This document shows, one piece after another, positions 28,241 through 34,617 of a DNA stretch of 34,617 nucleotides. Position 1 is the stretch's first letter. Each line of letters opens with the position of its first letter. Made by a program: the position numbers and the translations under genes. The stretch spans positions 1-34,617 of the forward strand of contig JAPEUG010000170.1 of assembly GCA_026025795.1 (NCBI GenBank), given 5' to 3'. A model generated the notes under the pieces. That model made no database searches and had not been told where the DNA came from. It saw only the letters and a program-made list of their open reading frames with translations. Source of the stretch: Thelocarpon superellum. Its lineage: Eukaryota.

Positions 28241-30987
<2,747 letters not shown>

Positions 30988-31590: not shown

Positions 31591-32297
31591 CTAATCAACC
31601 TCCACCACAGACAATAGAGCCTCTCTGACCACTTCGTGGCCTTCATCTACCACGCGTTTTGGTATTCGTAGCTCTTTGTCGCTTGGTCCGTTCCCATTCC
31701 CACTCCCGAGTGTACTGGAATGGGAGGTCGTAGATGTAGACGCAGTCCCATTCACCTTCTTCCCGTTCGTCATGGCCGTGTTTCCCTTCTTCCTATCCTC
31801 CTTCTCCTTCTCCTTTTCCTTCTTTCTGCTCGAGGCGTCTGCTTCGTGTCCGTCCGCATTCTCATCGCCGTCGCCGGAGCCGCGTGCCGCGCCCGGGCTC
31901 GCATTCGTATTCGCAGCCGCCACGCGCTCCTGGACGAGTTTCAAGAGCGTCGGGAACGTGTGGGCTTCGCCTGAGCGGAGCAGCGAGAGGCATAGAGTGC
32001 GGATGTTGCTCGGCCATGTCGTGCTGTGGACCGTGGAGAGGAGGTGTGCGTGGATTCTGTGGTGTGATGTGATGTGCGTTAGTGCGGGATGTGGAGCAAA
32101 GGGAAGAGGCGAGGGGCAGCGGGGCAGCGGGGGTTGCAACGGAGGTGGACGCACTTCTCAATATGCCCGCCGTCTAACAAGGCTCCGTTGATGTCGCTGC
32201 GCAGGTCGGGCGTCAAGGACGAGGGTGATGGGCTACTTCCCAGCGGGACGGGTCGGGCGTTTGACGATCCGCTCGTAGCTGCCGCCGAGGGCGCCAT
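31591..32297 (-). CDS. SUS1: Divergent Sus1/ENY2-like SAGA-DUB/TREX-2 subunit (202 aa); exons 32297-32155, 32056-31591
   Basis: LRSDINGALLDGGHIEK/IHAHLLSTVHSTTWPSNIRTL..F..LL..V..IP..VREAL..VVE follows the Sus1 helical pattern as I recall it. Intron 32154-32057 is GTGCGT..CTAAC..CAG; 609 nt in frame. Confidence 0.7.
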
Positions 32298-32588: not shown

Positions 32589-32630
32589 GAAGCGTGAAGC
32601 GTGAAGCGTGAAGCGTGAAGCGTGAAGCGT
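32589..32630 (+). repeat. (GAAGCGT)6 heptamer microsatellite
   Basis: Six perfect units upstream of the SUS1-like gene. Confidence 0.95.
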
Positions 32631-33477: not shown

Positions 33478-34598
33478 TCATAGGACGCCGCCAGGTACCA
33501 AGGGAACCCCGCTCTGATACGCCGGCCCTCGCCCACCGCCGATGCTGCCCGCCGGCTGTCCCACGAAGCCCGACATGCCCACGCTCCCCGGATGCCCATC
33601 CACCGTGGGCGCAATCTTGCGCAGCATGAACATGGGCTTCTTGCCCTCGCGGTCCAGTTGCTTGAACAGGATCAACGGCTTCTCCTCCAGTTCGAGGCAT
33701 CGTTCCTCGTCCCCAAAGACAATGTACAGCGCGTATTGCTTCCAGTCCGCGTTGATGTTGTACTTCTTCAACGCGTCCGGAAGCACCTTGTAGCACGGGT
33801 CGTCCATGGAGACCCGGAACGACTTGAAGATCTCCACGCTGGGTCCTCCGCTGCTGGGCCCGTTGCTGCCGTCCGACCGAGGCGGCTCCAGTGGCGTCGG
33901 CTCCGGTCGTGATCGGGTCGACGTCGCCGTCGACGTCGTCCCGCGCGCGTCGCGCTCGATGAAGGAGGTGTGCGGGAGCGAGATCTCTTCCGACGGCGTG
34001 TGCGTGTTGCGATTGCCCGACGAGCCCGCATGCCCGAAGGTTTGAGAGGCCAGCGTCGGCCCATTCCGGTGATGCGGCGGCGACGTCGGCGACGGTAGCT
34101 GCTGCGAGTAGCTCGGCGAGAGCTGCGGCGCCCCCGTCACCGTCGCCGCCAGGTGGCTCGACGCGGCGTTGGCCGCCAGGGATGACTCCACCTTGGACGT
34201 GTCCGACATGGCCTTGTTCTCTTGAATCGCCGGAGGCACGTGCGTCGGGGACGAGTTCTTCGGTGGGCCGCCCAGACCGAGCATCATCTTGGTCGAGATC
34301 TTGCGCGTCAGGCTGCTGTTCTTCTCCGGCGCCAGCTGTGGAGGGGGCATGACGCTGCCATTCTCATGCGAGCCGCCGTGCTGGTCCAGGGTGAGTCCGG
34401 CCGGGTGCGGAGGCAGCGGGCCCTTGGCCATGGTGAAGACCGGCAGGAGTTCTCGCCGGAGCGCCCGATACTCCTCCGTCAACTTGGCCAATTCCGACTC
34501 CGCCCGGATGATGCGCTCGTCACGGAGCCGGATGGAGTCGATGATCCGAGCAATATCCGCCTGCGTCGCCGTGGCATCCTGCATGTCGGCTTCCGCCG
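33478..34598 (-). CDS. STE50: MAPK adaptor Ste50, terminal exon (coiled region + RA domain); 5' part including the SAM domain lies beyond the window
   Basis: LRDERI coiled segment; RA domain VEIFKSFRVSMDDPCYKVLPDALKKYNI..YALYIVFGDEERCL..PLILFKQLDREGKKPMFMLRK; upstream in-frame TGA inside a CTGAC branch-like site marks an intron. Confidence 0.92.
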
Positions 34599-34617
34599 CT
34601 TCACCAATGCGTCAGCC

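What the first reader, a model, noticed from the sequence alone, without database searches (positions are those of the whole stretch)
31591..32297. Cryptic Sus1/ENY2 with an ~80-aa charged insertion and apparently ancestral intron position
Seen: no single ORF in the track shows this gene; it appears only after splicing. It aligns without gaps to S. cerevisiae Sus1 as I recall it (LKSQIQQYLVESGNYELISNELKARLLQEGWVDKVKDL vs LRSDINGALLDGGHIEKIHAHLLSTVHSTTWPSNIRTL), and the last helix IREFLEEIVD matches VREALLSVVE. Its phase-2 intron falls in the codon after G-x-x-E, where I recall yeast SUS1 intron 1 lies (exon 1 = 71 nt). An ~80-aa low-complexity insert with RKKEKEKEKEDRKK (NLS-like) splits the last two helices, doubling the protein size and hiding it from BLAST. 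From memory, Sus1 was regarded as missing from Aspergillus SAGA. Inference: filamentous ascomycetes carry a disguised Sus1 and possibly a remodelled DUB/TREX-2 module.
Basis: partly seen in the sequence, partly recalled or inferred. Interest (0 to 1): 0.72.

Follow-up and report, generated by a model that had tools for sequence, protein, structure and literature searches.

The report
Fungal Sus1 with a floppy loop
This two-exon gene encodes Sus1, a small adaptor for mRNA export and histone deubiquitination, in the loop-bearing form already crystallised from another filamentous fungus, so it is an ordinary member of a known family that several papers overlooked.

Summary
A minus-strand gene (exon 1 32297-32155, 98-nt phase-2 intron, exon 2 32056-31591) encodes 202 aa. 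Exon 2 matches Chaetomium Sus1 (PDB 4WPX, E 1e-9). A profile of relatives reaches yeast Sus1 and human ENY2, and a model of exon 2 superposes on Sus1/ENY2 structures at 1.2-2.1 A. The intron sits in the same codon and phase as yeast SUS1 intron 1.

The novelty is mostly not there. Dimitrova 2015 found Pezizomycotina Sus1, saw its disordered loop and crystallised it on Sac3; Cuenca-Bono 2011 already called intron 1 ancestral. The insert is not a conserved charged or NLS module: it is 6-91 aa in 17 relatives, has net charge zero here, and a basic motif occurs in 3 of 17.

What remains: five papers say filamentous fungi lack Sus1, yet this genome encodes Sus1, Sgf11, Ubp8, Sgf73 and a Sac3 CID. 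Failed splicing in gene models (20 of 44 relatives) helps hide the family. Whether the DUB module assembles on SAGA is open. New member of a known kind; interest 0.27.

The parts
32155..32297 (-). Exon 1, 143 nt: Pro/Ser-rich N-terminal extension, then Sus1 helix 1 (about 32213-32172) and the turn into helix 2
   Evidence: weak single-exon match to 4wpx_C, E 0.077; matches relative P0010 and P0004
32057..32154 (-). Intron, 98 nt, phase 2, GTGCGT...CAG; same codon and phase as yeast SUS1 intron 1
   Evidence: same acceptor position inferred in relatives
32078..32082 (-). Branch-point motif CTAAC
31591..32056 (-). Exon 2: helices 2-4, insert, helix 5, stop codon
31672..31920 (-). 83-aa low-complexity insert between helix 4 and helix 5 (spliced residues 94-176); predicted disordered; length and sequence not conserved
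31786..31827 (-). Alternating Lys/Glu run within the insert; lies on a 6-nt tandem repeat of 4.3 copies (31798-31823)
31606..31659 (-). Helix 5 (exon-2 residues 133-150)

Best explanation
This is the genome's Sus1/ENY2 gene, of the Pezizomycotina type. After removal of the one intron (inferred from signals and homology), the five helices fold into the Sus1 clamp and the 83-aa insert loops out as a disordered linker between helices 4 and 5 (predicted here; shown by missing density in Chaetomium). The clamp wraps the long helix of the Sac3 CID in TREX-2, probably one copy per Sac3, helping tether mRNA export to the nuclear pore (shown for the Chaetomium orthologue, inferred here). It probably also wraps the N-terminal helix of Sgf11 in a Ubp8-Sgf11-Sus1-Sgf73 module that removes ubiquitin from histone H2B (established in yeast; inferred here from gene content; about 0.65 on its own). 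The insert is tolerated, freely varying sequence with no conserved job.
For: Exon 2 hits 4wpx_C at E 1.1e-9 in two stretches, one covering helices 2-4 and one helix 5; the paper identifies that entry as the Sac3 CID:Sus1:Cdc31 complex. Profile A1 (19 rows, two from this window) hits 4wpx 5.9e-48, yeast Sus1 8.5e-5, human ENY2 1.8e-4, and a fourth Sus1 chain (6tbm_P) 0.03; these are the only 4 hits to E 1. Model of exon 2 against 48,161 chains: 5 of the top 6 rows are Sus1/ENY2, rmsd 1.2-2.1 A over 66-81 residues, Z 9.0-5.6. Pfam EnY2 at E<=0.1 in 18 of 44 relatives, 5 over the cut-off, and in 13 of the 14 with an intact helix 1. Only this locus matches in the assembly. Partners in the same genome: Sac3 (3e-73) with a CID matching 4wpx_B (1.2e-5); Sgf11 over cut-off with an N-terminal helix aligning weakly to yeast Sgf11; Sgf73; Ubp8, best six hits Ubp8-type chains. 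Insert 6-91 aa in 17 relatives, identity 0-20% against 29-58% in the helices.
Against: Exon 2 alone has no Pfam EnY2 match and the six-frame genome search with EnY2 found nothing; the spliced protein itself was not scanned against Pfam. Foldseek gave only E 0.15-0.19, though both rows were 4WPX. Z values of 5.6-9 are within the range that helical bundles reach by chance, as warns; helix 1 was not in the model. For the SAGA role: purified A. nidulans SAGA lacked Ubp8 (PMC3676421) and loss of Sgf73 did not raise H2B ubiquitination in F. graminearum (PMC10602907).
Confidence: 0.88

Rival explanations
1. It is Sus1 but serves TREX-2 only, or a Ubp8-Sgf11-Sus1 module that works apart from SAGA and Sgf73, in filamentous ascomycetes.
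For: A. nidulans SAGA purification recovered no Ubp8; F. graminearum Sgf73 deletion left H2B ubiquitination unchanged while Ubp8 deletion raised it; the Chaetomium work tested only TREX-2; the Sgf11 of these fungi is about 300-540 aa with an extra conserved Cys/His cluster.
Against: Sgf11 keeps a conserved N-terminal helix, the Sus1-binding part in yeast; Sgf73 keeps an N-terminal Cys/His finger. That the DUB module is loosely tethered and can be lost in purification is recalled knowledge, not from a call.
Confidence: 0.3
2. The insert is a functional module, a nuclear localisation signal or charged interaction surface.
For: It holds one K-K/R-x-K/R match; so do 3 of 17 relatives, including the close P0004. 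Most relatives keep some insert (median 52 aa).
Against: 14 of 17 relatives lack the motif; two have inserts of only 6 and 9 aa; net charge is zero; the run lies on a hexamer repeat that suggests slippage; the Chaetomium loop gave no density.
Confidence: 0.08
3. The locus is not a spliced Sus1 gene: another intron is used, or it is a pseudogene or chance helical match.
For: No direct Pfam match; the word-index protein search with exon 2 returned no hit.
Against: Best of 92 intron models by 20 bits; open frame, canonical splice signals and GC3 0.69; sequence, profile and fold all point to Sus1.
Confidence: 0.03

Closest known systems
Chaetomium thermophilum Sus1 (CTHT_0027270; PDB 4WPX; PMC4509546)
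   Same: Five-helix fold, N-terminal extension, disordered loop before the last helix (residues 99-139 unseen in the crystal), missed by ordinary BLAST and found by secondary-structure pattern; model rmsd 1.2 A over 81 residues, 37% identity.
   Different: Loop here is 83 aa against about 46 between the same anchors (counted by hand) and has a Lys/Glu run; helix 2-3 turn is two residues shorter.
Saccharomyces cerevisiae Sus1 (PDB 3FWB, 3MHH)
   Same: Helices 1-4 align without gaps; intron in the same codon and phase as intron 1; rmsd 1.9 A over 71 residues.
   Different: 96 aa with no insert; two introns; intron 1 has non-consensus GUAUGA and UACUGAC and is regulated by retention, whereas this intron has GTGCGT and CTAAC and no unusual structure (z -1.18). 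Yeast Sac3 binds two Sus1, Chaetomium one.
Metazoan ENY2 / e(y)2 (PDB 4DHX, 9JUA; Pfam PF10163)
   Same: Profile hit E 1.8e-4; rmsd 1.9-2.1 A over 66-68 residues.
   Different: 101 aa, no insert, about 15% identity in the structural alignment.

Membership tests
Sus1/ENY2 | Sequence homology to proven members | tested here: met
   4wpx_C E 1.1e-9 pairwise; profile reaches yeast and human chains
Sus1/ENY2 | Five-helix clamp fold | tested here: met
   Helices 2-5 modelled and superposed at 1.2-2.1 A on five family structures; helix 1 by sequence alignment only
Sus1/ENY2 | Pfam PF10163 EnY2 over the 27-bit cut-off | tested here: inconclusive
   No match for either exon alone or in six frames; spliced protein not scanned; 5 of 44 relatives pass the cut-off, 18 of 44 match at E<=0.1
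Sus1/ENY2 | Intron at the position of SUS1 intron 1 | tested here: met
   Phase 2, same profile column as yeast codon 24
TREX-2 subunit | Binds the Sac3 CID helix | not testable with these tools
   Needs a binding assay. The own Sac3 has a CID like that of 4WPX; binding is shown for the Chaetomium orthologue
SAGA DUB-module subunit | Ubp8, Sgf11 and Sgf73 encoded in the same genome | tested here: met
   G000 C24, C451, C3
SAGA DUB-module subunit | Binds Sgf11, co-purifies with SAGA and is needed for H2B deubiquitination | not testable with these tools
   Needs co-purification and H2B-ubiquitin assays
Splicing-regulated SUS1 of Saccharomycotina | Two introns with a non-consensus 5' site and branch site in intron 1 | tested here: not met
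   One intron in the coding region, GTGCGT and CTAAC, against the yeast signals
Classical NLS-bearing insert | Basic motif conserved among orthologues | tested here: not met
   K-K/R-x-K/R in 3 of 17 relatives' inserts

The most novel reading that the evidence does not exclude
Filamentous ascomycetes keep a complete but disguised DUB module (loop-bearing Sus1, an enlarged Sgf11 with a second conserved Cys/His cluster, Ubp8, Sgf73) that is remodelled and works largely apart from the SAGA core. This would reconcile the gene content seen here with reports that A. nidulans SAGA purifies without Ubp8 and that Sgf73 is dispensable for H2B deubiquitination in Fusarium.
Probability: 0.25. Interest if true: 0.6.

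Novelty: new member of a known kind. Interest (0 to 1): 0.27.

Why it matters
The gene itself is ordinary. Its use is as a correction. Five papers read here (PMC3676421, PMC6109063, PMC8905346, PMC9676040, PMC10602907) report no Sus1 in filamentous ascomycetes; one infers loss in the Pezizomycotina ancestor and others infer a different way of deubiquitinating H2B. The 2015 crystal structure and the relatives found here contradict the loss. Two causes of the miss can be named: the insert cuts off helix 5, and gene models often fail at the conserved intron. With Sus1 and Sgf11 identifiable, whether these fungi have a SAGA-bound DUB module becomes directly testable.

Tried and rejected
Complex prediction of exon 2, an exon-1 piece and the Sgf11 N-terminal helix: no verdict (0.30 and 0.04, mark 0.34; alignments not used; Sus1 in two chains); no evidence either way. 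RNA runs: no RNA holder was listed, so no reads were laid. Word-index search with exon 2: 75 candidates, none scored. Pfam EnY2 on single exons and on the genome: nothing; the 14 control genomes gave nothing either. Foldseek: only weak 4WPX rows. zf-UBP search found three other proteins and not Ubp8; Ubp8 came from the UCH family. Three regex classifications of relatives were faulty and were replaced. Atlas: EnY2-bearing clusters at 0.84-0.89, a lead only; its structure search gave nothing. No record named Aspergillus turned up among 30 looked up or 14 profile hits; AN7253 and AN8685 occur relevantly only in PMC3676421. Earlier scan findings: none. Supplements of PMC4509546 (Fig. S1E alignment) and Table S2 of PMC3201862 (intron positions) could not be read; both may already hold the insert comparison and the intron conservation. 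Intron RNA structure: not significant. NLS reading rejected.

Full report
Observation. The region holds two minus-strand frames and no single ORF for the gene. Splicing 32154-32057 (98 nt, GTGCGT, CTAAC at -26, CAG) gives 202 aa with the intron in phase 2 of codon 48. I tested all 92 single-intron models that keep the frame open against a profile of 17 relatives (the 17 non-window rows of A1, picked by hand from 44 hits for having all helices). The proposed model was best, 164.2 bits against 144.7, with no gap at the junction. The relatives were found with exon 2, so the profile is independent evidence mainly for exon 1 and the junction. A search of the 19.2-Mb, 797-contig assembly with relative P0004 found only these two exons; the assembly may be incomplete.

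Identity. Exon 2 matches chain C of PDB 4WPX at E 1.1e-9 in two stretches, helices 2-4 and helix 5. PMC4509546 (passages and section 7 read; supplements not readable) describes that entry as Chaetomium Sac3 CID:Sus1:Cdc31. Its Sus1 was found by screening Pezizomycotina genomes for small five-helix ORFs; residues 99-139 and the longer termini had no density; the helices and the Sac3 interface were conserved; one Sus1 bound per Sac3. Profile A1 hits four PDB sequences to E 1, all Sus1/ENY2. An AlphaFold2 model of exon 2 (39 rows, mean pLDDT 71) has confident helices and a low-confidence loop. Five of its top six structural matches among 48,161 chains are Sus1/ENY2, at rmsd 1.2-2.1 A; the channel helices ranked among and just below them (ranks 4 and 7-13) have rmsd 4.4-7.1 A. 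The Z values are modest, and Foldseek alone was weak. Against: neither exon alone matches Pfam EnY2.

Range. HMMER over 1.84 billion representatives gave 44 hits, one of them a repeat artefact (P0008). Named ones among 30 looked up, and among 14 profile hits, include Thelocarpon, Xylona, Sarea, Sclerophora, Sarcosagium, Trapelia, Sordaria, Sodiomyces, Berkeleyomyces, Thermoascus, Uncinocarpus and Coccidioides; every named one is labelled hypothetical, uncharacterized or predicted protein. The Thermoascus protein matches 4wpx_C at 3.1e-5 and EnY2 at 0.001. That these genera span several Pezizomycotina classes is my own knowledge. No Aspergillus record was seen, so Aspergillus itself is untested.

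The insert. Between fixed anchors it is 83 aa here, with 13 basic and 13 acidic residues, and 6-91 aa (median 52) in 17 relatives; 3 of 17 reach 80 aa. Identity to this protein is 0-20% in the insert and 29-58% in the helices; a K-K/R-x-K/R motif occurs in 3 of 17. The Lys/Glu run lies on a hexamer repeat. This fits a tolerated loop, not a conserved signal. It does appear to lower detectability: P0038 (6-aa insert) finds human and yeast chains pairwise (1.6e-4, 8.9e-4), while P0004 (60 aa) and P0047 do not at E 10. That is three proteins, and core divergence is confounded.

The intron. [quoted passage not shown] That is codon 24, phase 2, and yeast residue 24 aligns to the column of residue 48 here. 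Among the 44 relatives, 20 lack or displace helix 1, and 20 of 20 have Arg just before helix 2, as reading through a phase-2 AG acceptor gives; 6 of 14 intact records do (Fisher p 1.7e-4, overstated because the records are related; 10 rows set aside: 5 start inside helix 2, 4 have a divergent helix 1, 1 is the artefact). In 4 of 4 records that keep both exons apart, exon 1 is followed by Tyr or Cys, as a phase-2 GT donor gives. So the intron is probably widespread and often missed by gene callers. EnY2 matched 1 of those 20 but 13 of the 14 intact ones. Recalled and unchecked: human ENY2 also has a phase-2 intron in codon 28, which is this column. The regulated, non-consensus signals of yeast intron 1 are absent here.

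Partners. The genome encodes Sac3 with a CID like that of 4WPX, Sgf11 over the Pfam cut-off, Sgf73 and Ubp8. Sgf11 had 78 relatives; in 40 aligned, the N-terminal helix and the zinc finger are conserved and both align to yeast Sgf11, the helix only weakly.

Mechanism. Shown here: gene structure, homology, fold of helices 2-5, partner genes. Shown in an orthologue: wrapping of the Sac3 CID helix with the loop disordered. Inferred: the same TREX-2 role here (about 0.9), and a role in the Ubp8 module through the Sgf11 helix (about 0.65). Against the latter as a SAGA-bound module: A. nidulans SAGA purified without Ubp8, and Sgf73 loss did not change H2B ubiquitination in F. graminearum.

Literature. 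Passages of five papers report no Sus1 in filamentous fungi: PMC3676421, PMC9676040, which infers loss in the Pezizomycotina ancestor, PMC10602907, PMC8905346 and PMC6109063. A table in PMC3032688 lists no Sus1 call for several species (passages). Other papers were seen as search listings only. Nine searches showed no paper that places a Pezizomycotina Sus1 in a DUB module; the library lacks most subscription papers, and PDB entries 9YNU and kin hold an Sgf73-like chain whose paper I did not see.

Verdict. The kind of protein, its loop and the old intron are already in print. It is a new member of a known kind. The residual value is the correction of a repeated claim of loss and a testable question about the DUB module. 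Interest 0.27.

Noticed in passing
L001:801-2202 (G000 C451); alignment A3: The Sgf11 of these fungi is about 300-540 aa and has, between the N-terminal helix and the Sgf11 finger, a second cluster with three invariant Cys in 40 of 40 aligned rows and a consensus His, possibly a second zinc site; yeast Sgf11 is 99 aa. Several records carry a POP1 name that looks like a mislabel.
   Followed up: partly
P0014, P0017, P0022, P0043, P0046-P0055: A Eurotiomycete-like group of Sus1 relatives (Thermoascus, Onygenales among the named) has a divergent helix 1 and a long charged C-terminal tail; this may be the form that Aspergillus studies missed.
   Followed up: partly
L010:1860-2339 minus (G000 C3): The Sgf73 N-terminus matches a 1273-aa SCA7-domain chain in PDB 9YNU, 9YNW, 9YOL, 9YOQ (E 1.2e-11). 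No chain of those entries appeared in the Sus1, Sgf11 or Ubp8 searches.
   Followed up: no
window 28745-30987 +: Spliced AAA ATPase gene with two AAA domains, CDC48-like by my recall of its sequence, converging on the Sus1 gene.
   Followed up: no
window 33478-34611 -: ORF with a Ras-association domain (E 1.5e-12), Ste50-like by recall.
   Followed up: no
window 32589-32630: Perfect 7-nt tandem repeat, 6 copies, about 300 nt upstream of the Sus1 start codon.
   Followed up: no
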